A stretch of DNA of 64,000 bases from positions 1-64,000 of the IMG/VR virus record IMGVR_UViG_3300022592_000245, one strand, 5' to 3'. A program made the position numbers and the translations under genes. Origin of the DNA: a virus. Its lineage: Duplodnaviria; Heunggongvirae; Uroviricota; Caudoviricetes. Positions 3,495-54,269 of this stretch are shown here, piece by piece. The notes under the pieces were generated by a model. That model had not been told where the DNA came from. It saw only the letters and a list, made by a program, of their open reading frames with translations, and did not search any database. Position 1 is the stretch's first letter, and each line of letters begins with the position of its first letter.

Positions 3495-4816
3495 ATGAGC
3501 GATCCATGCTACAGCGTTATTTCTTCATTAGAAGATCACCCTTCGCGTTTGAATAAAGAAGCTATCATTTTGGCGCAAGCTGAAATGGGTAATAAAGAAT
3601 TCTTCGAAGGTTGTCGCCTTGCACTTGATCCAATGATTACTTTTGGACTAAAACAAATACCGGAGAAAACAAATGAAGATGGTCCTGGGCTACCTTGGGA
3701 TAGTTTTACTCTCGCTCTTACTGGTTTTGTCACTCGCAATGTCACCGGTAATACAGCGAGGACTATGATCGAAACAATGATGAACTCAGCTACTAAGCGT
3801 GAGTGGAATGGTTGGTATCGTCGTATCCTTATCAAAGACTTACGCTGCGGTGTAAGCGAAAAAACAATCAATAAAGTTGTGGAGAAGAAATATGCTGACT
3901 ATAGCATTCCTGTTTTCGGTTGTCAACTTGCTCACGATAGTGCAAACCATGAGTCTAAGGTTACAGGAAAAAAACTTATCGAAGTTAAACTTGATGGGGT
4001 TCGGGTTATCACTATTGTTCGCAGTGACGGCCGTGTCGATATGTTTAGTCGGAATGGTAAGGAGTTGGTAAACTTTCCACACATTGCAGAACAGATTAGT
4101 GCAGTAGTTAAACAAGACCCTCCACCTTACGACCTAGTGTTAGATGGTGAAGTAATGTCTAGCAGTTTCCAAGACTTAATGAAACAAGTACATCGTAAGA
4201 GCGATGTCCAAAGTGATGACGCCATTCTTAATTTGTTTGACGTTATTCCATTATCAAACTTTGAGGAAGGTGCTTGGGATAAAAAGCAATCGGATCGTAG
4301 CGACATGGTCTACTACTGGCACAAAAAGCATAAAGATACATTGCCTAATGTTGCAGTTGTTGGTCACGAACTTGTTGACTTAGATACTGACGAAGGTAAA
4401 ACTCGTTACAGAGAAATTAATGCCCAAGCTATTGCCGGCGGGTATGAAGGTATTATGCTTAAAGACCCGGAAGCACCCTACGAAGTTAAGCGTAGTGTAG
4501 CATGGCTCAAGTTGAAACCATTTATTGATGTTAGTTTAACCGTAGTAGTGTTGAAGAGGGTACTGGTAAAAATATCGGGCGACTTGGCGCATTTGTTTGT
4601 GAAGGTGTTGATGATGGGCGTACAATTCTTGTTAATGTGGGTAGCGGGTTTAGTGATGATCAGCGTGTGGCTTATTGGGCCAGCCGTGAAGATGCAGTTG
4701 GCAAAGTTGTCGAAGTTCGGGCTGATGCGATTACCCAAAATCAGGACGGTACTTATTCTTTACGTTTTCCACGATTTCTCCATTTTAGAGGCTTTAGCAA
4801 TGGCGAGAAAATTTGA
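3495..4816 (+). CDS. ATP-dependent DNA ligase. The adenylation domain is in frame 0. The OB-fold domain continues in the -1 frame after about 4548 (apparent frameshift)
   Basis: Motif I KLDGVRV (EVKLDGVRVITIV). Later WLKLKPFIDVSLTVV in frame 0. Frame 2 from 4550 reads VEEGTGKNIGRLGAFVCEGVDDGRTILVNVGSGFSDDQRVAYW…ITQNQDGTYSLRFPRFLHFRGFSNGEKI*, the classic ligase OB-fold C-terminus. Confidence 0.7.
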
Positions 4817-5048
4817 TATTAAAAGATCCATGCACAAGGATATGGTGTATGGATCTCTAATGGAACTTGTTAAGAATAGACAAGTTTGGCACGAAAGTAC
4901 AGTTAGTGTGGAATACAGCCACTTGACTGAAGACGGTAAGAATGCTATCATACATGTTGTTGAAGAATTGTTTCGAGGAATGCAAAACATTCAGCAACAA
5001 GAAATAAGAGAAGAAGCAAAGCAGCAGACCATGAATGCACTAAAATGA
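4800..5048 (+). CDS. hypothetical protein (82 aa). It is the tail of the track's 3495..5048 ORF, re-interpreted as a separate gene that starts at ATG 4800
   Basis: Frame-0 ORF continues after the ligase frameshift. MARKFDIKRSMHKDMVYGSLMELVKNRQ… Overlaps the ligase OB-domain stop by 17 nt. Confidence 0.35.
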   Translation: MARKFDIKRSMHKDMVYGSLMELVKNRQVWHESTVSVEYSHLTEDGKNAIIHVVEELFRGMQNIQQQEIREEAKQQTMNALK

Positions 5049-5290
5049 AGTACGTAAGATTAACTCTAATAGTTTGGGGAGCCCTCGCTACCTTTGTTGT
5101 TGTGTTAGGGTTAATGTCTAAACCAACTACCGAAACTCACGTGTTCTGTGCATATAACAGAGCATTTGTTGAGTTTGAAGAAAATGGTAAACGTTGGGGT
5201 ACTATTATGTTAGACTACCAAGGAAAACCTATACCGTGTACAGAAGATGATGTACGCGAACTACCAATTAATACAAAGGAAATTATATGA
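5045..5290 (+). CDS. small membrane protein
   Basis: TM helix LTLIVWGALATFVVVLGLM. ATGA overlap with the upstream gene. Confidence 0.4.
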   Translation: MKYVRLTLIVWGALATFVVVLGLMSKPTTETHVFCAYNRAFVEFEENGKRWGTIMLDYQGKPIPCTEDDVRELPINTKEII

Positions 5291-5658
5291 ACCCGTTTCG
5301 CGATCAAGAAAAATTTATGAAAGCATGTGGACAGACTGTTGATACATTTAATAAAGAACAATTTGCACTATACGTAAACTTGATTGAAGAAGAGTTTAAA
5401 GAACTCAAAGAAGCTATTAACAATAACGATCTTGTTGAAACACTAGATGCTTTAGAAGATATTTTAGTTGTTACTATCGGCGCTATTCATAGTGCAGGTA
5501 TGGATGGCGAAGGCGGTTGGAAAGAAGTTATGGGTACTAACTTTGCTAAAATCGATAAAGATACTGGACTTGTACGTAAACGTGAAGACGGTAAAGTTTT
5601 GAAACCAGTAGGTTGGGTTGCACCTAATCTAGAACCATTTGTGAAGAAGAATGTATAA
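5287..5658 (+). CDS. MazG-like nucleoside-triphosphate pyrophosphohydrolase (all-alpha NTP-PPase)
   Basis: Small acidic helical protein with EEEFKELKEA…ETLDALEDILVV, similar to MazG/HisE-type EExxE…D motifs. Confidence 0.45.
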   Translation: MNPFRDQEKFMKACGQTVDTFNKEQFALYVNLIEEEFKELKEAINNNDLVETLDALEDILVVTIGAIHSAGMDGEGGWKEVMGTNFAKIDKDTGLVRKREDGKVLKPVGWVAPNLEPFVKKNV

Positions 5659-5777
5659 AGTGAAATATTGGTTACTCGGATCATTGAAATCAAGGATGTT
5701 TGAAACACTAGACGAAGCAACACGATTTGCCGTTTATCAAGCACCATTTCAAAGTGTACACGAAATTTATAAAGTAT
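5649..5777 (+). CDS. small ORF (42 aa) not in the track, bridging two genes by start/stop overlaps
   Basis: MYKVKYWLLGSLKSRMFETLDEATRFAVYQAPFQSVHEIYKV. Its stop overlaps ATG 5776. Confidence 0.25.
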
Positions 5778-6351
5778 GAATATAGCACACTTGTTTCCAA
5801 CAATGGTAGGATCATTTGATTTTTCAAATGATCCTGAACTGCCAATACTGCTAGATATTATTAAAAAATATCCAACACAGGATCACATGTTGTTGAATGG
5901 CGGTGTAAGTAGTTATTATACCGAGACTAGAATTTTAAACGATCCTCGTATTGCAGGACTTCGTAGTCGAATTCAAGATAGCGTTAATCAGTATATTGAT
6001 TACTTAGGAGTTGCACCAGTTGAACTAGGAGTTAGTTGGTTTAACTTGCTCGGAGAAGGTAATCGAGTCAATCCACACCGTCATGAAATTAGTGTTGTTA
6101 GTGGTGCGTTCTATGTAGAAGCAGACGAAGGTAGTGTCGGCTTAACATTTAATTCACCTCTTGCTCCGTTGCGTATGTATGAATTTGTACAAAATGTTAA
6201 TGAACTTAACAATAATTTTTTTACAATGCCTTGTAAAACAGGATTACTATGCTTGTTTCCATCATGGTTAGAACATTTTACTAACATGAATGAAACAAAA
6301 AATAGAATCACGGTCAGTTTTAATACAACATATAGATTTGGAATAAGTTAA
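5776..6351 (+). CDS. putative 2OG-Fe(II) oxygenase-like protein (phage-associated family)
   Basis: Candidate HxD/E…H iron triad around NRVNPHRHEISVVSGAFYVEADEGS and …SWLEHF. Size and composition match the phage '2OG-Fe(II) oxygenase' family. Confidence 0.35.
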   Translation: MNIAHLFPTMVGSFDFSNDPELPILLDIIKKYPTQDHMLLNGGVSSYYTETRILNDPRIAGLRSRIQDSVNQYIDYLGVAPVELGVSWFNLLGEGNRVNPHRHEISVVSGAFYVEADEGSVGLTFNSPLAPLRMYEFVQNVNELNNNFFTMPCKTGLLCLFPSWLEHFTNMNETKNRITVSFNTTYRFGIS

Positions 6352-6353
6352 AA

Positions 6354-7187
6354 ATGCGTAATCATTATTGGACATGTAGTAAGTTTGCCGACTGGGTTCG
6401 TGGAATTCCAAAGGGCGAAGCTAAGACTAGCGAAGGTTGGGACAACTGGCACAAGCTCGCAGGACAGAGCAAAGTACGCTATTGGTTGGCTGAAGAAGGA
6501 TTAGACTATGCTCAAAAGATTGTTTTCTGGATTCCAGATACACTCCATTCCATTAAGTACTATATTAATAACCGTTGGGTTACTCGTACTCACGCTCTTA
6601 CTGCCCATCCTCGCGATATTAAACCTGGGACTTGGCACGATGTGGGAGGTCGCATTTTGCCTTGCCTATTTAATGAGCTACAGGATTTTGTGGAAGTGGA
6701 ACTCGCCTGGTGGCACATCGCCTGGGCAGACGAAGAAGAGCGAGCAAAATACAAAGTTCCATTCTGGGCAACAGGATGGTGGCGCTGGCGCACATGGCGT
6801 TGTCCGCAAGCTGGATTGGACAACCTCGAGTGGCAACGACAGCTTCGTTGGCAAGAAGACGAAGTCGGCCCTGACTCGGCTAACCTGGGAAAACTTACAC
6901 CACAGGCCGTTAAGGCACAAGAAATTCTTGATCTTTATACCTGGTGGACACAAACATATCGTAATCGTCCAGACCCTTACGAAGCAAGTGGTTGGAGTGC
7001 TTACTGTGCAGCAAGCCGTGAAGCTAACGGTGGCAAACTAGGGTGGGGGATTGATAAGAGTGCTGAACTCAAAAAGATGAGTAGCATTGCTATGAAGAAG
7101 CTACGCAAGATGGAAGCCGACTGCGAAAAAGAAGACGAAGCTATGATGATTCGTCTTATTAAAGTTCGACACGGACTATGGACATAG
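6354..7187 (+). CDS. hypothetical Trp/Arg-rich protein
   Basis: 277-aa ORF, W-rich (WATGWWRWRTWRCP). No recognised motif. Confidence 0.45.
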   Translation: MRNHYWTCSKFADWVRGIPKGEAKTSEGWDNWHKLAGQSKVRYWLAEEGLDYAQKIVFWIPDTLHSIKYYINNRWVTRTHALTAHPRDIKPGTWHDVGGRILPCLFNELQDFVEVELAWWHIAWADEEERAKYKVPFWATGWWRWRTWRCPQAGLDNLEWQRQLRWQEDEVGPDSANLGKLTPQAVKAQEILDLYTWWTQTYRNRPDPYEASGWSAYCAASREANGGKLGWGIDKSAELKKMSSIAMKKLRKMEADCEKEDEAMMIRLIKVRHGLWT

Positions 7188-7399
7188 ACGTAGTAATAGA
7201 CAGCGGACAGTACAGAGCCGAAGTATGGGAGCCAATGACTCCGGGTTGGGAATTTAGAGAACCATACCCGGAAGAAGTCTATATAGAAATAAATCAGTGG
7301 TGCATGGATACACTTAAATACCATGCTCGCACAGCATATCATATATTTGATTTTAAAAATCAAAAGGATTTAGAATGGTTTCTCTTAAGGTGGTCGTAG
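7178..7399 (+). CDS. hypothetical small acidic protein
   Basis: 73-aa ORF that overlaps both neighbours. Confidence 0.3.
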   Translation: MDIDVVIDSGQYRAEVWEPMTPGWEFREPYPEEVYIEINQWCMDTLKYHARTAYHIFDFKNQKDLEWFLLRWS

Positions 7400-8664
7400 A
7401 AAATATTAAACGTAGATATAAAAAATATTCTAATAATCGAGTAAAAATGGAATCTGGAACAATTTGCGCATTGCCGTGGGTACACTTAAACATTATACCT
7501 AGAGGCAAAGTATATCACTGCTGCATGACTACAAACTATAAAGAGTTTGCAGGGGATCTTACGACACAAACTCTTGAAGAAGTGTGGAACGGCGATCATA
7601 TGAAAAGTATTCGCAAGGATATGATTAGCGGTGTTGAACCAAAGGCTTGCAGTAAATGCTTTGAAGCAGAACGTAGTTCCGGTACTAGCACAAGAATACA
7701 CCACAACAAGTACTTTAGTAAAAAATTAGCAGAGATTCCTGTTATTACAGCGCCAGACGGACACGTCGACAATGTCGACTTAAAGTATTGGGATTTCCGT
7801 TTCAGTAACCTATGTAACTACAAGTGTCGCACTTGTGGTCCAGAATTTAGCAGTGCATGGATTCCAGATTCGGAAAAACTAGGTTGGGTATCTAACGACA
7901 AAAAAGTATTAGAGATTAATAGCGTAGACCAATCCACTAACGTAGACTTCTTAAAAAAATACGTAGGTACTGTTGAAAAGATTTACTTTGCTGGTGGGGA
8001 ACCGCTACTAATGGACGAGCATTGGCAAATTTTAGAAATGCTTGATCAAAGTCAGAGATATGACGTAGTGCTAACTTATAATTCAAATTTAAGTAAATTA
8101 ACATATCAAAATAAAAATGCCCTAGATTACTGGAAGAAATGGGGGAAGAAAGTTTGGTTATGGCCAAGCATTGATGACATTGACGATCGTGCCGAACTAA
8201 TACGCAGCGGTACTAATTGGAAAAATGTAGAAGCAAATTTAAAAGCAGTGTCGGCTTTAAATATTCATGTCCGACCAAGTATTACTGTAAGTTGCATGAA
8301 CGTTCATAGAATTCCTGTTATCTTAGATCGATTGATCGAGATCGGTGTTATTAAACAGGAAGAAGAAAACTGGACTAACTTTTCAATTAACGTTGTAGAA
8401 TACTCTCCTAGATATCATGTTAGTGCGCTAAAGGATGAAACAAGGGCTGCAATTAAGCAACAGCTAGAAGACTATATTCTAAGTTACGAAAAAAGATTTA
8501 ACGTAGATATCCGTCCTCAGTTTTTGCATTTGTTCTGGCATTTAGATAAACCATTTAATGCAGAGAACGCTCGACAATTTAAAGAAAATACTCTTCTATT
8601 AGATAAAATAAGAAACGAAGATACGTTAAAAACAATACCCGAAATAAAAGAGTTATTTGAATAA
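7375..8664 (+). CDS. radical SAM enzyme with an N-terminal SPASM-like Cys motif (unusual domain order)
   Basis: CxxxCxxC = CNYKCRTC. GGEPLL glycine-rich SAM motif. The N-terminal 90 aa (CALPWVHLNIIPRGKVYHCC…LEEVWNGDHMKSIRKD…KACSKC) resemble a SPASM/twitch auxiliary-cluster motif. Confidence 0.7.
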   Translation: MVSLKVVVENIKRRYKKYSNNRVKMESGTICALPWVHLNIIPRGKVYHCCMTTNYKEFAGDLTTQTLEEVWNGDHMKSIRKDMISGVEPKACSKCFEAERSSGTSTRIHHNKYFSKKLAEIPVITAPDGHVDNVDLKYWDFRFSNLCNYKCRTCGPEFSSAWIPDSEKLGWVSNDKKVLEINSVDQSTNVDFLKKYVGTVEKIYFAGGEPLLMDEHWQILEMLDQSQRYDVVLTYNSNLSKLTYQNKNALDYWKKWGKKVWLWPSIDDIDDRAELIRSGTNWKNVEANLKAVSALNIHVRPSITVSCMNVHRIPVILDRLIEIGVIKQEEENWTNFSINVVEYSPRYHVSALKDETRAAIKQQLEDYILSYEKRFNVDIRPQFLHLFWHLDKPFNAENARQFKENTLLLDKIRNEDTLKTIPEIKELFE

Positions 8665-9773
8665 TGGTACAATTTATAACAAAGCCTAAATCATCGTACG
8701 ACAATCCTGATGAAAAATTATCAAAATTTGCTTGCATGGTTCCATTTAAGCATATTGAAATTCATACACAGGGAAACGTCAGTGCATGTTGCCATACCTG
8801 GTTACCTGTGTGGGTAGGAAATTTACTTAAAGAATCTGCAGAGCAAGTTATAAACAACATTGATCGAAAAGCCATTCAAGACGGAATGCGTTGCGGGTCT
8901 TTTACTAAATGTAATGATCAATGTCCGCAATTAAATTCACTGTTAAATGATAACAAAGATTATTGGGACTTAGTACCGGTTGGCGATTTAGATAACAGAC
9001 TAAAAAAAGCAGCTATGCATGTTGGGTTTAGTTACGATGTAAGTTGTAATTTACAATGTCCTAGTTGCAGAAATAATCTCATTGTTTGGCGCCCAGATGA
9101 TCCAGACGATGCCAACGGGCAGATGATTAAACAGATCCATAACAATGTCAAAGACTTAATAAAAATTCTATTAACACAGCATCCTATAGTTAGTTTAGAT
9201 ATTACAGGTAGCGGTGATGCATTTGCTAGCCCGCTGTATTGGGATTACTTGCTAGAACTAGCTAGTCAACCTATACCTAGCAATCTTCGATTGACTCTTA
9301 AAACTAATGGTGTCATGATGACCGAAGAAAACTTGCTGGCTATTAAACCATTGTGGCCTATTATCACTTATATTGAAGTTAGTGTAGATGCTGCTACAGA
9401 AGACACTTATAAGATTGTTCGTAAGAATGGTAACTTTAAAAAATTAAGACGCAACCTTGATGTACTAGATCAACTAGTAAAGGAAGGTAATTTCCCTGCA
9501 ATGTCAAATTGGCAAACTAACTTTATTGTGCAAAGAGATAACTTCAGAGAACTTAAAGAGTTTGTTGTATGGCAATTAGAATTTAAATCAAAACCTAAAA
9601 TCTGGACTAACTTATTAGCCCAATGGTATCATATGTCCGATGAGCAATTTAATAAAATGGCAATCTGGCAAGACACACATCCTAGTAAATCTGAGCTAAT
9701 AGAAATCTTAAAAGATCCAGTTTTTAAAAGTTCACAATTAAAACTTGGAAATCTTACATCATTGATACCATGA
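8664..9773 (+). CDS. radical SAM enzyme, paralog of the 7375..8664 gene, with the same N-terminal SPASM-like motif
   Basis: CxxxCxxC = CNLQCPSC. N-terminal CMVPFKHIEIHTQGNVSACC…CGSFTKCNDQC parallels the upstream paralog. Confidence 0.7.
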   Translation: MVQFITKPKSSYDNPDEKLSKFACMVPFKHIEIHTQGNVSACCHTWLPVWVGNLLKESAEQVINNIDRKAIQDGMRCGSFTKCNDQCPQLNSLLNDNKDYWDLVPVGDLDNRLKKAAMHVGFSYDVSCNLQCPSCRNNLIVWRPDDPDDANGQMIKQIHNNVKDLIKILLTQHPIVSLDITGSGDAFASPLYWDYLLELASQPIPSNLRLTLKTNGVMMTEENLLAIKPLWPIITYIEVSVDAATEDTYKIVRKNGNFKKLRRNLDVLDQLVKEGNFPAMSNWQTNFIVQRDNFRELKEFVVWQLEFKSKPKIWTNLLAQWYHMSDEQFNKMAIWQDTHPSKSELIEILKDPVFKSSQLKLGNLTSLIP

Positions 9774-10780
9774 CATCCAAGCAAGTAATTTTTAAAATTA
9801 GATTTTTTGGAGGACTAGGTGATTGTTTAAAGATGCTTACAGAACAGACATCTTTATATCAACATTACCAAAAGAATGGATTACTTATATATTGGGTATA
9901 TTCTGATCCAAATATTGTAGAGTTTGTTTATGAGCGTTTTAGAGGATCAAAGATCCTCAATGGTGAATGGGCTTACATTCGAGACTATGATAAAGTTTCA
10001 GACTATAATACCGGACATACAACCACTGTATCGGGAGGTTACCCCGTACATCAAGCATTGTACGACTTGTTGATCCACTTTCCATTTTTTCAATTAGTCG
10101 ATCAAAACACGTTTGCAGTCACGGATGTTCCAGAACTTAATAATTATAGATGTAACAACTATCCATCGTTTTCCGAATCGAGTCAACTAAAAGGTTTATA
10201 TGAAAACGAGCAAGGTGGCTGGAAAATAGAATTAGAAGATGAATGGGTTCATAGTTTGTTAAGCGGTGCTGACTACACTTTTTGCGTACAGCTATCCGGT
10301 AGTAATTCAGCTAAAAAATATGATGCTGCAAACTATGTAAAACTTTTTAAACTAATTCTAGGAAGATATCCATCTTCTAAAATTCTTTTAATTGATAGAC
10401 CAAACTATATAGTTGATCCTACAATATTATTCGATGATCGGATAATTAATTTAGTAGGAAAGGCATCAATGATACAATGTGCTAGGATAATACAAGAAGT
10501 AGATTATCTTATAGCACCAGACTCATACTCTAAATATTTAAGAAAATGGGTCGACAAAAAACAGATAATATTGTGTGCTAAATTAGACTGTCACCCTGAT
10601 CCAAAAAAAATGTTAGAAGATGCGTTTAACATTGTAGGACTTTGTGACAACATACAAGTATCACTATTAGGAGTACAGTATCTTATGAATAACAGTAACA
10701 TCGTAGGTATGGTTTTAAAAATTGTAGACTCCATTAACGATATAAGCCCTGAAGAAATTTTTGATCGGATTAAACTATGA
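9770..10780 (+). CDS. glycosyltransferase family 9 (heptosyltransferase-like)
   Basis: GLGD motif near the N-terminus (FFGGLGDCLKML). C-terminal LVGKASMIQCARIIQEVDYLIAPDSYSKYL matches the GT9 G…sl.el.ali..adl.I..DSG..HL signature. Confidence 0.5.
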   Translation: MTSKQVIFKIRFFGGLGDCLKMLTEQTSLYQHYQKNGLLIYWVYSDPNIVEFVYERFRGSKILNGEWAYIRDYDKVSDYNTGHTTTVSGGYPVHQALYDLLIHFPFFQLVDQNTFAVTDVPELNNYRCNNYPSFSESSQLKGLYENEQGGWKIELEDEWVHSLLSGADYTFCVQLSGSNSAKKYDAANYVKLFKLILGRYPSSKILLIDRPNYIVDPTILFDDRIINLVGKASMIQCARIIQEVDYLIAPDSYSKYLRKWVDKKQIILCAKLDCHPDPKKMLEDAFNIVGLCDNIQVSLLGVQYLMNNSNIVGMVLKIVDSINDISPEEIFDRIKL

Positions 10781-12795
10781 GCAATACTAACAAAGACAGA
10801 GATCAAGTTATTCTAGATCATATATTAGAAAAAGATAAAATTAATCATGCCAATAGTCATTTAGGAAATGTTAATAAAACAAATCCAACATTTGAAATTT
10901 TTAATAGACCATGGGATGCTACTGACAAATACAGAGTTGCCATGGTTATGCTACCAGCATGGGGTATTTTATTTCCGCCATATAATCTAGCTAAACTTAC
11001 AGGTCTAATACGCCATTACGGATACAGTACAAAAACTTATGATTTAAACATCGAGTCGTTTCACGAGATTAAAAAAATAGTCAACGATGACTATTGGAGA
11101 GGTGAAAAATATTTCCTATGGGATCATAAAGAAAATTTTAATGAAAAAATTCTTCCTATTATAAAACCTCTACTTGATAGAGCAATTAATGAGATAGTTG
11201 AGTCCAATCCTAAAGTTATCGGGTTTAGTGTTTATAATACTAATATACATGCTGTTGAATATTTTATCAAAGAATTAAAATCTAGACTACCAGATGCATG
11301 TTACATTGCTGGCGGCCCCGAAACACTTACAGGATCTTCTATTTTTAATTTTCCGTTTAACTACTTTTTTGTAGGAGAAACTGAAGGAACACTAATAGAA
11401 CTATTAGAAAATTTACCTGAAACATATCCGATGGGTGAGAAGATCGGAACTACTGATAGCAAATTACAACTAGAAGCTTTACCATTTCCCGACTACTCTG
11501 ATTACAATTTAACAAGTTATCAACACCCTGACGGTGTAAGTATCGAAACATCAAGAGGATGTGTAGCAGAGTGCAGCTTTTGCGCCGAGACATATTTTTG
11601 GAAATATCGAAGCAGAACACCGGATCGGGTAATAGAAGAAATGGAACACCAAATTAATCAATATGGTGTTAAAAGATTTTGGTTTGTTGATAGTTTAGCA
11701 AACGGCAATATTAATAATTTTAAAAGACTGATAGATTTGGTCTTAGAAAAAAAACTTAAAATCTGGTGGAACAGCTATGTTCGATGTGATGGACGAATGG
11801 ATCGAGCGTTTATTCAAAAAATTAAAGATAGCGGTTGTACTTGTTTAAGCTACGGGGTCGAATCGGGAAGCCAAAAAGTACTTCTTGATATGCGTAAAAA
11901 AATTGAAATTTGGGAAATCGAAAACAATCTTCGTGACGGGGCAGAAGTTGGTTTGTTTAATCACGTGAATTGGATTGTTGGATTTCCAACAGAAGAACCT
12001 ATAGACTTTTTGCATAGTTTACAACTAATTGCCAATGCTAGAAAACACATCGGAGCCATTAGTCCAGGGTTCGGTGCCGGACCTGCTAAAGCAAGTCATA
12101 TGGACACCGATTGGAAAATTTATAAAATGGTTGGAGATCGGTTCCCAGGTGAACAGCCATTCTTAGGTGCATGGTACACTGAAGATTTTAAAAACACAGT
12201 GTTACACCGGTTTATAAGAATTAAACTGTTTCATAGTTGGTTAGATATTTTAGAAAGACATGCCGGTTCAGTTATATTGAATAGCCAAAAATATTCAAGC
12301 GTTGATACCTTTTATAAATTTTCAAGATCAGCTAATGCTCCAGAATATTGCAATTATGACCAATTTGTAAATTTAAACCAGTTTAATGATAATATGGGCA
12401 TTGCTAATGAGTATCTTGCAATAGCATATGCAGCATATTTGTATTTTGGCGAGATTAACCTGTCTATAAATTTTGATCCTGCTAAAGATTTGCCAGCGTT
12501 CGGGACATGGTTAGCAAATGACTATACTGCTTCTTTTAATATATCAATTAAAGCAGACGGATCTTATACATTAACGTTAGCACATAAATTTAATCATAGA
12601 GCATTAGACGAAAATAAAGCCAAAGTGATAGAATGGGAGAATACCATGTATGATAAATCTTTTGAAGAAACAATAGTTAAATCTGGAAATATCTCAGATT
12701 GGATTTCTGATCAAGTCCAAATTAAGGAAACTGTTCACGAAAAATATCGAAATAAGTCCAAAAAAGTTATTAAAATTGAAATCGATAACAGTTGA
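10777..12795 (+). CDS. B12-binding-domain radical SAM enzyme (class B rSAM, methyltransferase-like)
   Basis: N-terminal Rossmann-like cobalamin-binding region (VIGFSVYNTNIHAVEYFIKELKSR…IAGGPE). rSAM motif CVAECSFC (ETSRGCVAECSFCAETYFW). Confidence 0.75.
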   Translation: MSNTNKDRDQVILDHILEKDKINHANSHLGNVNKTNPTFEIFNRPWDATDKYRVAMVMLPAWGILFPPYNLAKLTGLIRHYGYSTKTYDLNIESFHEIKKIVNDDYWRGEKYFLWDHKENFNEKILPIIKPLLDRAINEIVESNPKVIGFSVYNTNIHAVEYFIKELKSRLPDACYIAGGPETLTGSSIFNFPFNYFFVGETEGTLIELLENLPETYPMGEKIGTTDSKLQLEALPFPDYSDYNLTSYQHPDGVSIETSRGCVAECSFCAETYFWKYRSRTPDRVIEEMEHQINQYGVKRFWFVDSLANGNINNFKRLIDLVLEKKLKIWWNSYVRCDGRMDRAFIQKIKDSGCTCLSYGVESGSQKVLLDMRKKIEIWEIENNLRDGAEVGLFNHVNWIVGFPTEEPIDFLHSLQLIANARKHIGAISPGFGAGPAKASHMDTDWKIYKMVGDRFPGEQPFLGAWYTEDFKNTVLHRFIRIKLFHSWLDILERHAGSVILNSQKYSSVDTFYKFSRSANAPEYCNYDQFVNLNQFNDNMGIANEYLAIAYAAYLYFGEINLSINFDPAKDLPAFGTWLANDYTASFNISIKADGSYTLTLAHKFNHRALDENKAKVIEWENTMYDKSFEETIVKSGNISDWISDQVQIKETVHEKYRNKSKKVIKIEIDNS

Positions 12796-12820
12796 CTTTT
12801 AACATTTCTTTTAGTATATT
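12792..12820 (+). promoter_or_regulatory. sigma70-like promoter TTGACT-17-TATATT
   Basis: TTGACT at 12792-12797, 17-nt spacer, TATATT at 12815-12820, upstream of the 12855 start. Confidence 0.45.
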
Positions 12821-12854
12821 ACATACATATTGTTTAACAATAGGAATAACATAA

Positions 12855-14054
12855 ATGGCTAAAACAGCAACTAAAACTAGAGTAACAAAGAAACAGGTTA
12901 TCGCGCATCGCACTCGTGCAGTAAAGGACACTAGTCCGAGTTGGGAAGGTTGTGAAACTTGGGACGGGGATCAGTTTCATCGATATTTTGTAAATGCAAT
13001 GACTTACTATCGTTTAGAGTCTGATATTAAAACTTACAAACCAGCAGTTGCTAAATGGATGGAATCAGTTGGCTGTACCAAAGCTGACATCACAGCGTTT
13101 AAAAAAGTTAAAGATAGCCGTGTTAACACTACAATGGGTGCTGTTGCTTGTTGTTTAAATCGAGGTATGCAGGCACAGCGTCCTGACTTCAACAAAGGGC
13201 GTGACACCGCGGCCTGGTTGAGAGAAGAGATTGTTAAGGTTATTGCAGAAGGCAAAAACGATATTGATCCAGACGAAGCTAAGGCAATCGAAGCAGCAAA
13301 GCCTGCTGTTTATACTCCTTCAATTCAAGAGCGTGTCAAAGAAGCTGCTTACAAAATGACTGATGAGATCGAAAACGCAATTGAAAGTTTTCAAACTGAT
13401 CCAGATGCATTTGACCCGAAAGCATTTAAGGTACTTAATTTACTTAAAGCCGTTGATGCAAAGGCAGCACACACTAGAATTATTAAAAGCTTCTACGAGC
13501 GTGATTTAGCTGAACTTGAAGAAGCAGCTACCAAGGACGCAGATGAGCAGCTTAAAGAAGCTTATAGCCACCTTAGTAAAGCTAATTTAAAGAAGATTAC
13601 GCAGTTCTATCAAGAAATTATGAGTGCTTGCGAAATGCTTGCACAAGAAGCTAAAGTTAATCGTGCTCCACGTAAAACAAAAGCAGTAAGTAAAGATAAG
13701 CTAGTTGCTAAACTCAAATACCTAAAAACTTTTGAGCCATTAAAACTAGTTAGCGTTAATCCAACAGATGTAATTGGTTCAAAAGAATTGTGGATTTATA
13801 ATACTAAAACACGTAAGCTCGGAAAGTATGTTGCCGCAGAGTTTCAAGACTTGGGCATTAAAGGTACTACAATCGTTGGATTTAACGAGCATACTAGTAT
13901 TCAGAAAACAATTCGTAAACCAGAAGAAAAGCTCAAAGAATTTAAAGCTGCGGGTAAAGTACAGCTACGTAAATTCTTAGAAGACATTAATGCAACCGAT
14001 ACTAAAATGAACGGACGCATTAACGAAGATACAATCCTGCTCAAAATAGCTTAA
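12855..14054 (+). CDS. hypothetical protein (399 aa), coiled-coil rich. Possibly scaffold or internal protein
   Basis: Long ORF with helical, K/E/A-rich composition. No catalytic motif. Confidence 0.45.
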   Translation: MAKTATKTRVTKKQVIAHRTRAVKDTSPSWEGCETWDGDQFHRYFVNAMTYYRLESDIKTYKPAVAKWMESVGCTKADITAFKKVKDSRVNTTMGAVACCLNRGMQAQRPDFNKGRDTAAWLREEIVKVIAEGKNDIDPDEAKAIEAAKPAVYTPSIQERVKEAAYKMTDEIENAIESFQTDPDAFDPKAFKVLNLLKAVDAKAAHTRIIKSFYERDLAELEEAATKDADEQLKEAYSHLSKANLKKITQFYQEIMSACEMLAQEAKVNRAPRKTKAVSKDKLVAKLKYLKTFEPLKLVSVNPTDVIGSKELWIYNTKTRKLGKYVAAEFQDLGIKGTTIVGFNEHTSIQKTIRKPEEKLKEFKAAGKVQLRKFLEDINATDTKMNGRINEDTILLKIA

Positions 14055-14073
14055 ATAGTCGGTTTTCAGGTAA

Positions 14074-14104
14074 CTCTCGTGCTAAGATAAATACAGCACG
14101 AGAG
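14074..14104 (+). terminator. 10-bp perfect stem hairpin (CTCTCGTGCT-11 nt-AGCACGAGAG), intergenic
   Basis: Perfect inverted repeat between the stop at 14054 and the start at 14112. No T-tract follows, so it may be a processing or regulatory hairpin rather than an intrinsic terminator. Confidence 0.35.
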
Positions 14105-14111
14105 ACCTATT

Positions 14112-15575
14112 ATGACCCAACTATTCACTATTCTAAACGATAAAATCGTAATTGACAAACTAGCCCTAACAACATTAGAAGGCGACGTAACTCATACTGG
14201 TAGTTTAACAACAGATACAATTACTGTTGATACACTTACTGTTAATAATCTAGTAACAAAACACAAAAACTCAACTGATGTAGGTAACTGGACTGCTAAC
14301 TTAGAAGCAGATATTACTGGCAAAGGATTGGATTGGACTTGGGGACAAGGTAGTTATAAATTCATTTACAGAGACGGTGGGCGTCTTTGGTCCAATGCTG
14401 ATATTGATTTAAGCACAGATAATTCTTATAAAATCGATAACGTTGCTGTACTAAGTGCCGGAGCATTAGGTTCTACAATTACAAAAAGTAATTTAAGACA
14501 AGTTGGCGCATTAAACAGTCTTACAGTGCTAGGTGAAGCAAGTCTAGGTCAGTTTGCTTTTTTTAGTAGTAACTTAGGACGTATTGGTATTAACACAGAA
14601 AGTCCTAATGGTTCTTTAGCTATTGTTGAAAATGATGTAGAGTTTATTGCTGGTAGTTCACGTGTAGGCAGTGCAGATGTTGGTACATACAGCAATGCCG
14701 ATCTTAATATTATTACAGACAACACTGCAAGAATTGTTGTTAAGAATAACGGAGATGTTGTCTTTGGCAACGAAGTAAGTAAAACTGCCAATGTTACTAT
14801 CTATGGAACCTTAAACGTTGAAACTATTATCTCAGATACACGAGTTGATCGTTATAACTCATTAGAGTTTAAATCAACCAAAGATTCTAACATTTACAAT
14901 AAAGGTTTAGAATGGACAGGTACCGGACCAACTAGACATTTAGTTATGGCTAGCAATCCAGATAGACTTTGGACTAGCGAATCTTTTGATTTGGACAATG
15001 GGCAATCATATTACATTGGAGGTAGTCCAGTTCTTTCTGCCACTGCACTAGGTGCAAATGTAGTTACATCTAGCTTAACTAAATTAGGAAATCTCGAATC
15101 ATTAACTGTTGTCGGTCCTGCAAACTTTACAAACGAATTAAATATCGACACAGCAAAATTCAAAACTGCTATTTTTAATGATCGTCTTAACAGTGTAAAT
15201 ATTGCTAGTACCGGAATAAGTTCTACTAGTAACATTTCTGTTCTAGTATCACAAGACGAAGTCTTTTACGCTGATGTTAATCAAGTTAACATTGGCAATA
15301 AAGATAATGTTCGTAGACCTGTTAAGGTTTATGGTCCATTGTCGATTGGGGTCAATAATCCTGACCCTAATTTTGATTTAACAGTCAAAGGCAATGTTAG
15401 TTTTGCTGATAAAAAGTTTATTACTGGTAATGTAGCACCTACACAAGGTACATTCAGTAAGGGCGATGTTTGTTGGAATAATCAGCCACAAAGCGGTAGC
15501 TATATTGGATGGGTATGTGTTACAGAAGGCGCACCCGGATTATGGTTACCATTTGGACTGATTACTTCACAATGA
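14112..15575 (+). CDS. virion structural protein, tail-fibre-like
   Basis: Ser/Thr/Asn/Gly-rich with short repeated beta-type segments (LSAGALGSTITKSNL… / LSATALGANVVTSSL…). Confidence 0.45.
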   Translation: MTQLFTILNDKIVIDKLALTTLEGDVTHTGSLTTDTITVDTLTVNNLVTKHKNSTDVGNWTANLEADITGKGLDWTWGQGSYKFIYRDGGRLWSNADIDLSTDNSYKIDNVAVLSAGALGSTITKSNLRQVGALNSLTVLGEASLGQFAFFSSNLGRIGINTESPNGSLAIVENDVEFIAGSSRVGSADVGTYSNADLNIITDNTARIVVKNNGDVVFGNEVSKTANVTIYGTLNVETIISDTRVDRYNSLEFKSTKDSNIYNKGLEWTGTGPTRHLVMASNPDRLWTSESFDLDNGQSYYIGGSPVLSATALGANVVTSSLTKLGNLESLTVVGPANFTNELNIDTAKFKTAIFNDRLNSVNIASTGISSTSNISVLVSQDEVFYADVNQVNIGNKDNVRRPVKVYGPLSIGVNNPDPNFDLTVKGNVSFADKKFITGNVAPTQGTFSKGDVCWNNQPQSGSYIGWVCVTEGAPGLWLPFGLITSQ

Positions 15576-16029: not shown

Positions 16030-16578
16030 ATGACTTGGATAATTGATAAAACTTTTGAATTCTGTTATGGACACAGAGTTCATACACAAACACTAAATGG
16101 TGAATATGCAGCAGACTTAAAGTGTGCTTGCAGACATTTACACGGACACGAAGGCAAAATGCAGGTACATTTAACTGCGCCAACGTTAGACAATACAGGT
16201 ATGGTTACCGATTTTAGACATTTAGAATGGCTAAAGAAGTGGATCAACACTTATATTGACCATCAATTTATTATTGATAAAAACGATCCCCTATATGGAA
16301 AAATTATTGGGGATAGGGGCCTTGTTCCTGTTTATGTTCCAGATACTAATCACTGTGCTGGGTGGCATTTGGATCTATCGGGACTTGAAGCAAACACTCC
16401 AGAATATGAATATTTCGAAGGATTCATGGTTGTGGACTTTGTTCCAACAAGTGAAAAACTATCCGAATGGATGGCAGAACTTGTTGAAGCTAAAATGAAA
16501 AAGCTCAACGTACAAGTTGAAAGCATTGAATGGTGGGAAACTCCGAAGAGTCGTTCGGTGTTTTATACGGATAGATAA
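16030..16578 (+). CDS. queD: 6-pyruvoyl-tetrahydropterin synthase family (QueD-like 6-carboxy-tetrahydropterin synthase)
   Basis: CxxxHGH zinc motif (CRHLHGH). N-terminal FEFCYGHRVH. PTPS-like length. Confidence 0.7.
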   Translation: MTWIIDKTFEFCYGHRVHTQTLNGEYAADLKCACRHLHGHEGKMQVHLTAPTLDNTGMVTDFRHLEWLKKWINTYIDHQFIIDKNDPLYGKIIGDRGLVPVYVPDTNHCAGWHLDLSGLEANTPEYEYFEGFMVVDFVPTSEKLSEWMAELVEAKMKKLNVQVESIEWWETPKSRSVFYTDR

Positions 16579-18645: not shown

Positions 18646-29272
<10,627 letters not shown>

Positions 29273-29273
<1 letters not shown>

Positions 29274-40696: not shown

Positions 40697-41446
40697 ATGC
40701 CACAAAATAACTATCAATGGAAAAGAGATAAAGCAGATCCGCGTGATCATGCTTTTGCTCCAAGACTAACAACATTACCTACAAGTGTAGACTTACGTGC
40801 TAACTGTTCAGCTATCGAAGACCAAGGTAACTTAGGTTCATGTACTGGCAATGCCATTGCTGGTATTGTAGAATATCTATGCCGCAAAGCAAAACGATCT
40901 ACTGATGTCAGCAGACTCTTTATCTATTATCAAGAACGTGTATTAGAAGGAACTGTTAACTATGATAACGGTGCTTACATCCGCGATGGTATTAAAGCTG
41001 TAAACAAGATTGGTGTGCCTACTGAAACATTATGGCCATACACTATTAATAGATTTGCCTATCGCCCTAGTCAAGCTGCATACATTAATGCTGCTACACG
41101 CAAGGCAGTTGGTTATCAAAAGTGTGCTAACTTTGCCGCAGTTAAAGCTGCCTTGGCACAAGGTTATCCCGTTGTAGTCGGGTTCGATGTGTATGAAAGT
41201 TTTGAATCAGATGCAGTTGCAGCTACTGGTCAAATGCCTTATCCTAACAAAGCAACTGAACAACTACTAGGCGGTCATGCCGTAGCACTAGTCGGTTATA
41301 ATGACTCTACTGGTAAGTTCATTGCCCGTAACTCGTGGGGTACAAGCTGGGGCGATCATGGCTACTTCTACATGCCATACCAGGTAATCCAAGACACCTC
41401 AATGAGCGATGACTTCTGGATCATTACAAGTATTACTAACCCCTAA
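40697..41446 (+). CDS. papain-family (C1) cysteine peptidase
   Basis: DQGNLGSCTGNAIAG (catalytic Cys context QGxCGSCWAF-like), GGHAVALVGYND (His), NSWGTSWGDHGYFYMPY (Asn/Trp block). Confidence 0.75.
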   Translation: MPQNNYQWKRDKADPRDHAFAPRLTTLPTSVDLRANCSAIEDQGNLGSCTGNAIAGIVEYLCRKAKRSTDVSRLFIYYQERVLEGTVNYDNGAYIRDGIKAVNKIGVPTETLWPYTINRFAYRPSQAAYINAATRKAVGYQKCANFAAVKAALAQGYPVVVGFDVYESFESDAVAATGQMPYPNKATEQLLGGHAVALVGYNDSTGKFIARNSWGTSWGDHGYFYMPYQVIQDTSMSDDFWIITSITNP

Positions 41447-54215: not shown

Positions 54216-54244
54216 TTGACAGGTCCAATTAAATAGTGTACTAT
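54216..54244 (+). promoter_or_regulatory. consensus sigma70-like promoter TTGACA-17-TACTAT
   Basis: TTGACA at 54216-54221, 17-nt spacer, TACTAT at 54239-54244. This makes the track's ATG 54236 a non-start. Confidence 0.5.
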
Positions 54245-54269
54245 ACATTATTATTTGGACCTGTTCTTA

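What the first reader, a model, noticed from the sequence alone, without database searches (positions are those of the whole stretch)
7375..12795. Phage-encoded cluster of two SPASM-type radical-SAM paralogs, a GT9 glycosyltransferase and a B12-dependent radical-SAM enzyme
Four consecutive, translationally coupled genes encode three radical-SAM enzymes and a heptosyltransferase-like GT9. The rSAM motifs are CNYKCRTC, CNLQCPSC and CVAECSFC, the last with a cobalamin-binding domain. A 2OG-oxygenase-like gene and Trp-rich unknowns lie upstream. Class-B (B12) rSAMs typically C-methylate unactivated carbons on sugars or peptides. SPASM rSAMs install thioether or carbon-carbon crosslinks, or modify protein or sugar substrates. 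Combined with a glycosyltransferase, this looks like a self-contained pathway making a modified (methylated or deoxy) sugar and transferring it. Possible acceptors are a virion fibre, host LPS, or a RiPP-like product. Such a cassette is not a standard phage module and may be the novel system in this window.
Basis: partly seen in the sequence, partly recalled or inferred. Interest (0 to 1): 0.85.

Follow-up and report, generated by a model that had tools for sequence, protein, structure and literature searches.

The report
Mobile phage radical-SAM glycan-tailoring cassette
A jumbo phage carries a swappable four-gene cassette (three radical-SAM enzymes, one of them B12-type, plus a divergent heptosyltransferase-like enzyme) that belongs to a widespread, virus-enriched, uncharacterised module and most likely decorates a surface sugar coat.

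Summary
Four overlapping + strand genes (7375-12795) encode:
- two paralogous radical-SAM (rSAM) enzymes with an unusual N-terminal twitch Fe-S domain;
- a B12-binding class-B rSAM.

New findings:
- The three rSAMs are the conserved core. In 27 of 28 non-redundant viral B12-rSAM clusters, an N-twitch rSAM lies within four genes.
- This B12-rSAM clade is nearly absent from cellular genomes (3 loci in 185,579 species).
- The glycosyltransferase is an optional accessory, present in only 3 of 58 viral loci counting the window.
- The cassette fills a hypervariable, lowest-GC slot next to fibre-like genes and moves between unrelated phage backbones.
- Related islands carry GT8-like, UDP-sugar dehydrogenase, carbamoyltransferase, NDP-sugar epimerase, DUF6492 and SGNH-like genes.

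I therefore favour tailoring (oxidation or epimerisation plus C-methylation) and transfer of an unusual sugar onto a surface glycoconjugate. The acceptor and the chemistry are unproven. The proposed 73-aa precursor peptide is not conserved. No gene here is QueE-like. The cassette is neither rare nor self-contained. A pelagimyophage study noticed such rSAM cassettes in passing, but none has been characterised.

The parts
7375..8664 (+). rSAM1: N-terminal-twitch radical SAM enzyme, a full member of NCBIfam NF033640. The alternative start at 7447 (M25) is likely the true one.
8664..9773 (+). rSAM2: a divergent paralog of rSAM1 with the same N-twitch plus rSAM architecture.
   Evidence: Pfam SPASM covers residues 24-87 and Radical_SAM covers 128-270. 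NF033640 scores only 78 bits, below the 170 cutoff. It has the parallel Cys pattern C24, C42/C43, C83, C87 and C128/C132/C135, conserved in 4 orthologs. It is about 23% identical to the rSAM1 family.
9770..10780 (+). GT9L: a divergent GT9-superfamily (GT-B, heptosyltransferase-like) glycosyltransferase. It is an accessory gene inserted into the rSAM core.
10777..12795 (+). B12-rSAM: a class-B (B12-binding domain plus radical SAM) enzyme of a virus-enriched clade, with an uncharacterised conserved C-terminal region of about 240 aa.
   Evidence: PF02310 covers residues 125-209 (35.0 against 32.1) and PF04055 covers 256-418 (62.8 bits). The best NCBIfam models are all far below cutoff: TIGR03975 at 115.7 against 281.85, and PhpK at 105 against 600. 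There are 592 homologs, and 57 IMG/VR loci against 3 GTDB loci. An N-twitch rSAM is adjacent in 27 of 28 non-redundant clusters.
6354..7187 (+). Left border of the variable slot: the Trp-rich backbone protein (cluster c25). It is not part of the cassette.
   Evidence: It is 57-62% identical in all same-backbone relatives, whatever the island contains. No family hit.
12855..15575 (+). Right border of the slot: backbone protein c31 (12855-14054, phrog_11903) and fibre-like protein c29 (14112-15575). These are candidate acceptors, by inference only.
   Evidence: c31 is 67-72% and c29 is 41-44% identical in same-backbone relatives. c29 matches tail-fibre and virion structural PHROGs.
18646..18969 (+). 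A-type Fe-S carrier (IscA/ErpA-like), a possible helper for loading the cassette's Fe-S clusters. This is tentative, and it is a backbone gene.
   Evidence: PF01521 is recorded on the identical gene in L072. The translation shows the C...CGC motif. It is 72-77% identical in L014, L019 and L020, and a 40%-identical copy is in L013, another B12-rSAM phage.

Best explanation
The region is a horizontally mobile tailoring cassette in the hypervariable, fibre-adjacent island of a jumbo myovirus of about 345 kb.

**Composition**
- The conserved core is an all-radical-SAM trio. It has two paralogous enzymes with an N-terminal twitch domain (one auxiliary [4Fe-4S] cluster on C-x17-CC-x41-C-x2-C) and a virus-enriched class-B (B12-domain) rSAM.
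- In this phage the core has acquired a GT9-superfamily glycosyltransferase.

**Proposed mechanism (inferred, not shown)**
- The twitch rSAMs abstract H from a sugar carbon of a nucleotide-sugar or a nascent glycan. They then oxidise, epimerise or decarboxylate it, with the auxiliary cluster handling the electron, as in BtrN, BlsE and anSME.
- The B12 enzyme C-methylates an unactivated carbon.
- The GT9-like enzyme transfers the resulting, or a partner, sugar from an NDP-sugar onto a surface glycoconjugate.

**Acceptor**
- My preferred acceptor is a virion surface or fibre protein encoded next door.
- Host envelope glycan (LPS core or O-chain) is the close second.

Hypervariability of the island would then diversify the phage's, or the infected cell's, surface chemistry in an arms race.

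**Shown:** domain identities, conservation of the Fe-S and GT catalytic residues, core co-occurrence, virus enrichment, mobility and island hypervariability.
**Inferred:** the substrate class, the individual reactions and the acceptor.
For: - **Domains and motifs:**
- **GT9 fold and profile:**. The GT9-type G-x-G-D (D18), K182 and D251-S252 are invariant in the ORF3 family and align to the GT9 K-x-W and D-S-G motifs.
- **Core co-occurrence:** about 54 of 57 viral loci, and 27 of 28 clusters at 70% identity, have N-twitch rSAMs beside the B12-rSAM.
- **Sugar context of ORF3 relatives:** L008 has GT47, CMP-sugar synthetase/HAD, two UDP-Glc dehydrogenases, an epimerase and GT2. L005-7 have DUF6492, Methyltransf_24 and an NDP-sugar epimerase/dehydratase. 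ORF3-like domains are fused to DUF6492-type and SGNH-like domains.
- **Sugar context of the rSAM islands:** GT8/glycogenin-like c4, carbamoyltransferase in 22 loci and a UDP-Glc/GDP-Man dehydrogenase.
- **Bacterial rSAM1 homologs (53-57% identical):** they lie in a Methylomagnum glycan cluster with sulfotransferases, GT2, GT4, an ABC transporter and methyltransferases, and in a PMT_2/GT2-flanked array.
- **Fibre adjacency in two unrelated backbones:**
- **Hypervariability and mobility:** at least 5 different island contents between the same c25 and c31 borders. GT9L is shared at 66% with a different backbone but absent from same-backbone relatives. The island is the lowest-GC 5.4 kb of the window.
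- **Structure:** rSAM1's nearest structure is BlsE, a sugar-nucleoside decarboxylase.
- **Literature:** GT8 genes and rSAM cassettes lie in the tail-fibre hypervariable cluster of pelagimyophages (PMC7029224). Virion glycosylation is established in mycobacteriophages (Freeman 2023, as cited).
Against: - No reaction, substrate or acceptor is demonstrated.
- The window's cassette has no sugar-activation or NDP-sugar pathway gene. The one cytidylyltransferase-like gene in the window is NadR/NMNAT-like.
- The glycosyltransferase is missing from most cassettes, so the rSAM core does not need it.
- Three of five bacterial contexts show no adjacent glycan genes. These are the Halobacteriovorax Ntw-c2-Ntw-Ntw-B12 module and the stand-alone tandem paralogs in two Bacteroidota-like contigs. 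In L076 a DegT/Bac_transf/Wzy_C cluster lies 7-9 kb away.
- The best (sub-threshold) NCBIfam and PDB matches of the B12 enzyme are peptide or protein C-methyltransferases: TIGR03975, ApyD and the MCR glutamine methyltransferase 9CCB.
- The B12-domain score is marginal (35.0 against 32.1), and cobalamin use is untested.
- The c3 family, guessed to be GT-A-like from its sequence, has no detectable homology to anything.
Confidence: 0.5

Rival explanations
1. Host-envelope remodelling. The same chemistry applies, but the acceptor is the infected cell's LPS core, O-chain or another outer-membrane glycan. The effect would be to block superinfection, or to stop progeny being adsorbed to debris. This differs from the best explanation only in the acceptor.
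Against: No lysogeny genes were seen in the window, and host serotype conversion is classically a trait of temperate phages (background knowledge). No flippase, Wzy or lipid-carrier genes are in the cassette. The adjacency is to fibre genes, not to early or host-takeover genes.
Confidence: 0.2
2. Sugar-independent post-translational modification of a phage structural protein, in the style of RiPPs or proteusins. The twitch rSAMs would epimerise or crosslink residues and the B12 enzyme would C-methylate them, for example to harden fibres against proteases. The GT would be an unrelated add-on.
For: The top NCBIfam hits for the B12 enzyme are RiPP C-methyltransferase families (TIGR03975 at E 2e-33, ApyD). 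Its best PDB sequence hit is the protein glutamine C-methyltransferase 9CCB. SkfB, anSME and SuiB are among rSAM1's top structural neighbours. The rSAM core occurs without any GT in most phages and in Halobacteriovorax. The cassette is adjacent to fibre genes.
Against: All of those family scores are far below the curated cutoffs. No conserved small ORF or common protein partner accompanies the core: ORF73 has no homolog, and different backbones have different neighbours. The islands are rich in sugar enzymes.
Confidence: 0.13
3. DNA hypermodification. The enzymes would build or tailor a glycosyl or alkyl group on a modified base to evade restriction.
For: Phage GTs that glycosylate DNA are well known (Pyle 2024, as cited), and rSAM steps occur in thymidine hypermodification (background knowledge). 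The backbone flanks are nucleic-acid enzymes: ligase, MazG-like, PTPS/QueD-like, UvdE-like and dCMP deaminase.
Against: Those flanks are backbone genes, conserved whatever the island holds. Island content differs between close relatives, which is unexpected for a genome-wide DNA chemistry that the polymerase and nucleases must tolerate (inference). No hydroxymethylase, base kinase, DpdA/TGT or QueC/QueE genes were found in the parts scanned, and QueE models score about 14 bits. Bacterial homologs are not in DNA-modification contexts.
Confidence: 0.07
4. Synthesis or modification of a small molecule, cofactor or lipid. This would be an auxiliary metabolic function unrelated to surfaces.
For: Stand-alone tandem N-twitch paralogs lie in housekeeping neighbourhoods of Bacteroidota-like contigs, next to UbiA, Peptidase_U32, transketolase and similar genes. 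The all-rSAM module in Halobacteriovorax has no GT nearby. Class-B rSAMs include lipid and cofactor enzymes, with weak hits to the ladderane-lipid, BzaD, BchE and HpnJ models.
Against: All of those hits are far below cutoff. Hypervariability and between-phage exchange next to fibre genes are atypical for a metabolic AMG. The phage islands are rich in GTs and sugar-nucleotide enzymes.
Confidence: 0.1

Closest known systems
NCBIfam NF033640 (N_Twi_rSAM, 'twitch domain-containing radical SAM protein')
   Same: rSAM1 is a full-length, above-cutoff member (345.8 bits against 170), with the N-terminal twitch Cys set and CX3CX2C conserved. Bacterial members are 53-57% identical.
   Different: No function is described for the family: no paper was found. 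rSAM2 is only a sub-threshold relative (78 bits). Here the family is encoded by a phage and obligately paired with a class-B rSAM.
Twitch/SPASM rSAM enzymes acting on sugars or proteins (BlsE, BtrN, anSME, SkfB)
   Different: The auxiliary domain is N-terminal instead of C-terminal. Sequence identity is 14-16%. There is no PDB hit by sequence. Substrate and reaction are unknown.
Class-B cobalamin-dependent rSAM methyltransferases (GenK, Fom3, TokK, PoyC, QCMT/MgmA, PhpK)
   Same: The architecture is an N-terminal B12-binding Rossmann domain followed by the rSAM core. C-methylation of unactivated carbons on carbohydrates, antibiotics and proteins is the dominant chemistry of the class (PMC12931638).
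   Different: It falls below the cutoff of every curated subfamily. It has its own conserved C-terminal region of about 240 aa, and in some relatives an N-terminal extension of about 435 aa. The clade is almost confined to viral contigs. Methyltransfer and cobalamin use are unproven.
GT9 heptosyltransferases (WaaC, WaaF; the protein heptosyltransferase TibC)
   Same: It has the GT-B fold with GT9 enzymes as the top three structural matches. Profile-profile probability is 99.7% over the donor-binding half. The N-terminal G-x-G-D, the Lys and the D-S motif are conserved.
   Different: There is no PF01075 hit and sequence identity is only 10-13%. It has a low-confidence insert of about 45 aa (residues 47-90) that the L005-type subgroup lacks. 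Donor and acceptor are unknown, and it lies in a phage island, not an LPS-core operon.
Hypervariable host-recognition cluster (HRC) of T4-like pelagi- and cyanomyophages
   Same: It is a variable island beside tail-fibre genes holding GT8 glycosyltransferases and LPS-type sugar genes. [quoted passage not shown] The same gene types appear in the loci analysed here.
   Different: That paper only mentions the cassettes. It gives no composition, no B12 enzyme, no N-twitch family and no distribution. The present phage is a jumbo myovirus of about 345 kb with a different backbone.
Virion glycosylation systems (mycobacteriophage capsid and tail-tube glycans; giant-virus fibril glycans)
   Same: These are virus-encoded GTs plus sugar-tailoring genes that decorate virion proteins (Freeman 2023, as cited; giant viruses from background knowledge).
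   Different: None of those systems is known to use radical-SAM or B12 enzymes. Virion glycosylation is not shown for this phage.

Membership tests
Radical SAM superfamily (PF04055) | CX3CX2C cluster motif and an rSAM core HMM score above the gathering threshold | tested here: met
   Scores are 37.1, 40.9 and 62.8 bits against 29.5. The three Cys are 100% conserved in each family. rSAM1 has a GGE motif (G207, G208, E209 invariant).
NF033640 N_Twi_rSAM | Whole-protein score at or above 170 bits with an N-terminal twitch domain | tested here: met
   rSAM1 scores 345.8 bits over model positions 2-398 of 398. rSAM2 scores 78.1 bits, so rSAM2 does NOT meet the cutoff and is only a divergent paralog.
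SPASM domain rSAM (PF13186 / TIGR04085) | C-terminal seven-Cys motif binding two auxiliary clusters; TIGR04085 score at or above 27 | tested here: not met
   PF13186 does hit (43.2 and 27.8 bits), but at residues 31-95 and 24-87, which is N-terminal. Only five Cys are conserved there. TIGR04085 scores 18.2, below 27. The domain is twitch-type, not full SPASM.
Class-B (cobalamin-binding) radical SAM | N-terminal B12-binding Rossmann domain followed by the rSAM core | tested here: met
   PF02310 covers residues 125-209 at 35.0 bits against 32.1, which is marginal. PF04055 covers residues 256-418. PF02310 is precomputed on nearly all of the 120 listed homologs.
Class-B (cobalamin-binding) radical SAM | Actual cobalamin binding and methyl transfer | not testable with these tools
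   This needs reconstituted protein with UV-vis or EPR of bound cobalamin, and SAH plus 5'-dAdo stoichiometry.
Named class-B subfamilies (RiPP C-MT TIGR03975, PhpK, ApyD, BchE, HpnJ/HpnR, BzaD, MCR Gln-MT, TsrM-type) | Score above the curated equivalog or subfamily cutoff | tested here: not met
   The best score is 115.7 against 281.85 (TIGR03975). Others are 105 against 600, 94 against 750, 71.6 against 481, and so on. In the PDB there are only weak core matches to 9ccb and 6fd2.
GT9 (PF01075, heptosyltransferase family) | Direct PF01075 HMM hit above 22 bits | tested here: not met
   ORF3 has no Pfam, NCBIfam or PHROG hit even at E 0.1.
GT9 (PF01075, heptosyltransferase family) | GT-B fold closest to GT9 structures, remote sequence homology, and conserved catalytic Asp, Lys and Asp | tested here: met
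RiPP biosynthetic cluster | A conserved precursor-peptide gene next to the maturases | tested here: not met
   ORF73 (7178-7399) has no tblastn hit better than E of about 3 in 71 related loci. In L014 and L015, rSAM1 follows c25 directly.
7-deazaguanine (QueE) pathway | A QueE-family rSAM score above cutoff | tested here: not met
   TIGR03963 scores 14.0 bits against 260.1 for rSAM1. There is no QueE hit for rSAM2 or the B12-rSAM.
Prokaryotic viperin | NF038283 score at or above 180 | tested here: not met
   Scores are 35.1 and 22.5 bits.
Phage hypervariable fibre-adjacent glycan island (HRC-like) | Variable gene content between conserved borders in close relatives, adjacency to fibre genes, and GT or sugar genes | tested here: met
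   There are at least 5 different contents between c25 and c31/c29. Fibre-like c29, c8 and c10 and a Collar-domain protein are adjacent. The island is the lowest-GC segment.

The most novel reading that the evidence does not exclude
The N-twitch rSAM plus B12-rSAM trio is a virus-specialised radical-chemistry machine. It would install a modification so far unknown in phage biology: a C-methylated, oxidised or epimerised sugar on virions, or direct RiPP-like C-methylation and epimerisation of fibre proteins. It would make infectivity of a broad set of large environmental phages depend on host cobalamin and Fe-S supply. That would define the first B12-dependent enzyme clade essentially restricted to viruses and a new axis of phage surface diversification.
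Probability: 0.2. Interest if true: 0.85.

Novelty: new variant of a known kind. Interest (0 to 1): 0.6.

Why it matters
- Phage-encoded glycan islands are known, but none has been linked to radical-SAM or cobalamin chemistry.
- This is a compact, recurrent and exchangeable three-rSAM core with a virus-enriched class-B enzyme. It offers a tractable entry to the unknown function of the NF033640 family.
- It could lead to new sugar or protein C-H functionalisation chemistry.
- It bears on how large environmental phages diversify their surfaces, or their hosts' surfaces.
- It raises an ecological question: such phages would need host B12 and anaerobic-type Fe-S enzymology during infection, and this phage lineage carries its own A-type Fe-S carrier.

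Tried and rejected
- **Close phage relatives.** Megablast of 5000-15000, and tblastn of ORF3, against 50,697 GenBank phages found nothing. rSAM1 finds only 20-24% identical jumbo Vibrio and Ralstonia phage rSAMs.
- **ORF3 against PDB by sequence profile.** One spurious hit only. The afdb50 fold library was unavailable.
- **Precursor-peptide idea (ORF73).** No homologs, so rejected.
- **QueE and viperin identities.** Rejected on score.
- **The 2OG oxygenase as part of the system.** It is absent from every related locus, so it was dropped.
- **Cytidylyltransferase-like gene 60052-60621 as an ADP-heptose synthase.** Its nearest PDB relatives are NadR/NMNAT, so rejected.
- **c3 as a GT-A enzyme.** No Pfam, PHROG or PDB support, so it stays unassigned.
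- **N-terminal extension of the long B12-rSAM variants.** No PDB match.
- **Promoter and terminator scan of 6900-13100.** Counts are at the shuffle background and say nothing.
- **Literature.** No paper on N_Twi_rSAM function or on phage B12-rSAMs.
- **Bacterial contexts.** I hoped these would fix the substrate, but they are mixed: two glycan-rich, one with a glycan cluster 7-9 kb away, and two without glycan genes.
- **Environment and host.** Neither could be determined from the tools. My early assumption that the phage is marine is unverified.

Full report

Yes. ORFs at 7375-8664, 8664-9773, 9770-10780 and 10777-12795 lie on the + strand with stop/start overlaps of 1, 4 and 4 nt.

- **Pfam.** Radical_SAM hits are above threshold in ORF1, ORF2 and ORF4. 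SPASM hits are above threshold in ORF1 and ORF2. ORF4 has a B12-binding domain at 35.0 against 32.1 bits.
- **NCBIfam.** ORF1 is a full-length member of NF033640, 'twitch domain-containing radical SAM protein' (345.8 bits, cutoff 170). ORF2 is a sub-threshold relative at 78 bits.
- **Auxiliary Fe-S domain.** It is N-terminal (residues 31-95 in ORF1, 24-87 in ORF2) and has five conserved Cys: C31, C49/C50, C92 and C95 in rSAM1, and C24, C42/C43, C83 and C87 in rSAM2. It is therefore twitch-type, not a full SPASM domain.
- **Conservation.** All CX3CX2C cysteines are 100% conserved.
- **ORF1 start.** The true start may be M25 at 7447.

**2. ORF3 is GT9-like.**

No HMM library recognises it, and only 19 close homologs exist among 5.8 billion proteins. 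Several lines of evidence still place it in the GT9 superfamily:

- **Remote profile hits.** The ORF3 family profile, run against 1.84 billion representatives, pulls in remote hits. Of 36 scanned, 32 are PF01075.
- **Profile-profile comparison.** hhalign against a GT9-only alignment gives 99.7%, E 3e-25. ORF3's invariant K182 and D251-S252 fall on the GT9 K-x-W and D-S-G motifs.
- **N-terminal motif.** The G-x-G-D (D18) is also invariant.

**3. What is the unit?**

Related loci show that the conserved core is the three rSAMs, not the four genes.

- L001 has rSAM1, rSAM2 and the B12-rSAM at 63-68% identity without ORF3.
- A scan of IMG/VR with a B12-rSAM alignment returned 57 loci.
- In about 54 of those 57, the B12-rSAM is directly flanked, co-directionally, by one to five N-twitch rSAMs.
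- Two of the three exceptions are cut by contig ends.
- After clustering the B12 proteins at 70% identity, 27 of 28 clusters keep the association.
- ORF3 occurs in only three loci: the window, L016 (=L003) and L022.
- A third rSAM type, c2, has a conventional C-terminal Cys-rich tail and is present in 39 loci, but not in the window.

**4. The B12-rSAM clade is virus-enriched.**

- It has 592 homologs at E below 1e-10, nearly all metagenomic, on contigs up to 360 kb.
- A pattern scan of one genome for each of 185,579 prokaryotic species found only three loci, all on MAG contigs.
- One pair, from Halobacteriovorax, is genuinely bacterial, with DnaX, RecR and TadA nearby. It carries the same Ntw-c2-Ntw-Ntw-B12 architecture without any glycosyltransferase.
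- The pattern scan is not exhaustive, so I say 'enriched', not 'exclusive'.

**5. Genomic setting and mobility.**

- **The phage.** The window is 99.98% identical to an independent assembly (L072). The same proteins occur on a 345 kb contig. Its ClpA-like and c31 proteins relate it distantly to jumbo myoviruses of about 350 kb and to PA5oct-like phages.
- **The slot.** In phages sharing this backbone (L014, L015, L018-L020, L039, L060, L005-7), the slot lies between the Trp-rich protein c25 and c31 plus the fibre-like c29. It holds at least five different gene sets:
  - rSAM1-rSAM2-B12;
  - the same with GT9L (the window);
  - four N-twitch rSAMs plus B12;
  - Ntw-c9-Ntw-c2-B12;
  - 384aa-Ntw-c2-Ntw2-SGNH-like-GT9L-DUF6492 with a methyltransferase and an NDP-sugar epimerase/dehydratase, and no B12 enzyme.
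- **Mobility.** GT9L is 66% identical in L016 and L022, which have a wholly different backbone, yet it is absent from same-backbone relatives. The rSAM genes are about as similar across backbones (57-69%) as in the closest same-backbone relatives (58-73%).
- **Composition.** The cassette is the lowest-GC 5.4 kb of the window, 0.343 against 0.393 ± 0.024.
- **The other backbone.** There the island abuts a conserved block that includes fibre-like proteins (c8, and c10 with a Peptidase_G2 chaperone domain) and two GT8/glycogenin-like genes (c4). Another phage contig puts it after a Collar-domain fibre.

**6. What does it act on?**

*Evidence for a sugar or glycan.*

- ORF3 relatives sit in rich sugar-nucleotide and GT clusters.
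- ORF3-like domains are fused to DUF6492-type and SGNH-like domains.
- The rSAM islands repeatedly carry an O-carbamoyltransferase (22 loci), a UDP-Glc/GDP-Man dehydrogenase, methyltransferases and GT8-like genes.
- rSAM1 is 53-57% identical to bacterial proteins in a Methylomagnum polysaccharide cluster (sulfotransferases, GT2, GT4, an ABC transporter, methyltransferases). It is similarly close to proteins in a four-paralog array flanked by PMT_2 and GT2 genes.
- rSAM1's nearest structure is BlsE, a glucuronate-nucleoside decarboxylase.

*Evidence against.*

- Most cassettes lack a GT.
- Three of five bacterial contexts have no adjacent glycan genes.
- The B12 enzyme's best (sub-threshold) matches are peptide or protein methyltransferases.

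I therefore put about 0.5 on sugar tailoring plus transfer onto a surface glycoconjugate. Within that, I prefer a virion or fibre acceptor over a host-envelope acceptor. The other rivals are RiPP-like protein modification (0.13), a small-molecule or lipid product (0.10) and DNA hypermodification (0.07).

**7.

- The 73-aa ORF (7178-7399) has no homolog in 71 related loci, and in L014 and L015 rSAM1 follows c25 directly. It is not a precursor peptide.
- The 2OG oxygenase is found in no related locus.
- None of the rSAMs is QueE- or viperin-like.
- The cassette is not self-contained, because it has no sugar-activation gene. The only cytidylyltransferase-like gene in the window is NadR/NMNAT-like.
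- It is not unusual among large environmental phages.

**8. Prior knowledge.**

- No paper describes a function for N_Twi_rSAM or for phage class-B rSAMs.
- Zaragoza-Solas et al. (PMC7029224) noted that the hypervariable host-recognition cluster of pelagimyophages is rich in GT8 and LPS-type genes. [quoted passage not shown] That is the same phenomenon, left unexplored.
- A 2026 review confirms that C-methylation of unactivated carbons on carbohydrates, antibiotics and proteins dominates known class-B chemistry. It identifies 9CCB as the MCR glutamine methyltransferase.

**9. Supporting detail.**

About 6 kb downstream, at 18646-18969, the backbone encodes an A-type Fe-S carrier (PF01521, with the C...CGC motif). 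It is conserved in same-backbone relatives and also present in another B12-rSAM phage, L013. This is consistent with a phage that has to mature several [4Fe-4S] enzymes, but it is only circumstantial.

**10. Verdict.**

- The feature is real and correctly described.
Rarity and self-containment were also overstated.
- It is a new variant of a known kind, namely phage hypervariable glycan or host-recognition islands, built around uncharacterised radical and B12 chemistry.
- Interest is moderate to high (0.6). The enzymology and the virus-restricted clade are notable, but substrate and acceptor remain inferred.

Noticed in passing
window 4529-4547 (inside the DNA ligase gene, 3495-5048): The ligase is frameshifted by a 1-nt deletion in the short repeat 'gtagtagtg', with two nearby substitutions. 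Both halves stay 74-75% identical to the intact L014 ortholog. Independent assemblies of the same phage (L072, L073) have an intact 440-aa ligase. Three of the only four differences between the window and L072 over 20.8 kb cluster here, so this is an assembly error or a strain-specific lesion.
   Followed up: yes
window 18646-18969: A small A-type Fe-S carrier (IscA/ErpA-like, PF01521) lies just upstream of the 3432-aa protein. It is conserved in same-backbone relatives and also found in L013, another B12-rSAM phage. It may help mature the cassette's Fe-S enzymes. The fourth window-versus-L072 difference (18785) lies in this gene.
   Followed up: partly
window 18975-29273, 30185-32560, 32574-38435, 38445-40679: A run of very large ORFs (3432, 791, 1953 and 744 aa). 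The 791-aa ORF gives tail-fibre and collagen-like PHROG hits. Part of the 3432-aa protein resembles the fibre-like c10 protein that flanks the rSAM island in other backbones. These are candidate glycosylation targets.
   Followed up: partly
window 5776-6351: A 2OG-Fe(II) oxygenase (PF13759, phrog_81) is present in this phage but in none of the same-backbone relatives. It is another variable gene, unlinked to the cassette.
   Followed up: partly
window 16030-16578: A QueD/PTPS-like gene, with no QueC, QueE or FolE partners seen in the parts of the window scanned. The syntenic PTPS in L005 is only 24% identical.
   Followed up: no
window 47089-47487, 54236-55126, 55597-57879: The phage encodes its own chaperone set: a GroES-like Cpn10, a DnaJ and a ClpA-like AAA+ ATPase. 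The ClpA-like protein is 40-44% identical to those of Vibrio, Escherichia and Xanthomonas jumbo phages of about 350 kb.
   Followed up: partly
window 58901-60621: A DUF6267 protein is translationally coupled to a cytidylyltransferase-like protein whose nearest solved relatives are NadR/NMNAT. This is probably NAD salvage and not sugar activation.
   Followed up: partly
window 40697-41446, 48701-49153, 49172-49891, 51371-52003: A papain-family cysteine protease, a dCMP deaminase, PhoH and a GH19-type lysin. These are ordinary large-phage cargo.
   Followed up: no
L032, L034-L037, L048, L066 (for example L032:8603-12106): Some B12-rSAM homologs are about 1,170 aa, with an N-terminal extension of about 435 aa that has no detectable relatives. 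Its second half is shared with the 921-aa variant in L038. This is a possible fused tailoring domain that might reveal the substrate.
   Followed up: partly
L024:6525-7475 and 36 other loci (cluster c3): A conserved domain of about 317 aa (invariant motifs include IDGDN and NGG...W) flanks the rSAM islands. It also occurs inside proteins of 580-1317 aa. It has no Pfam, PHROG or PDB homology.
   Followed up: partly
L070 and L071 (Halobacteriovorax MAGs); L076, L077, L010/L011 (Bacteroidota-like contigs): Bacteria carry tandem arrays of two to four N-twitch rSAM paralogs. In Halobacteriovorax there is a full Ntw-c2-Ntw-Ntw-B12 module, often with no glycan genes nearby. The cellular role of NF033640 is open.
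   Followed up: partly
L013 and L075 (NCBI assembly GCA_013572995.1): Two phage-like contigs of over 100 kb lie inside one NCBI assembly (not checked; I suspect it is not a bacterial genome). One has DNA polymerase B and GTP cyclohydrolase I; the other has ThyX and a Collar-domain fibre. Both carry members of these rSAM families. In L013 the B12-rSAM stands alone next to the DNA polymerase, one of the few exceptions to the pairing rule.
   Followed up: no
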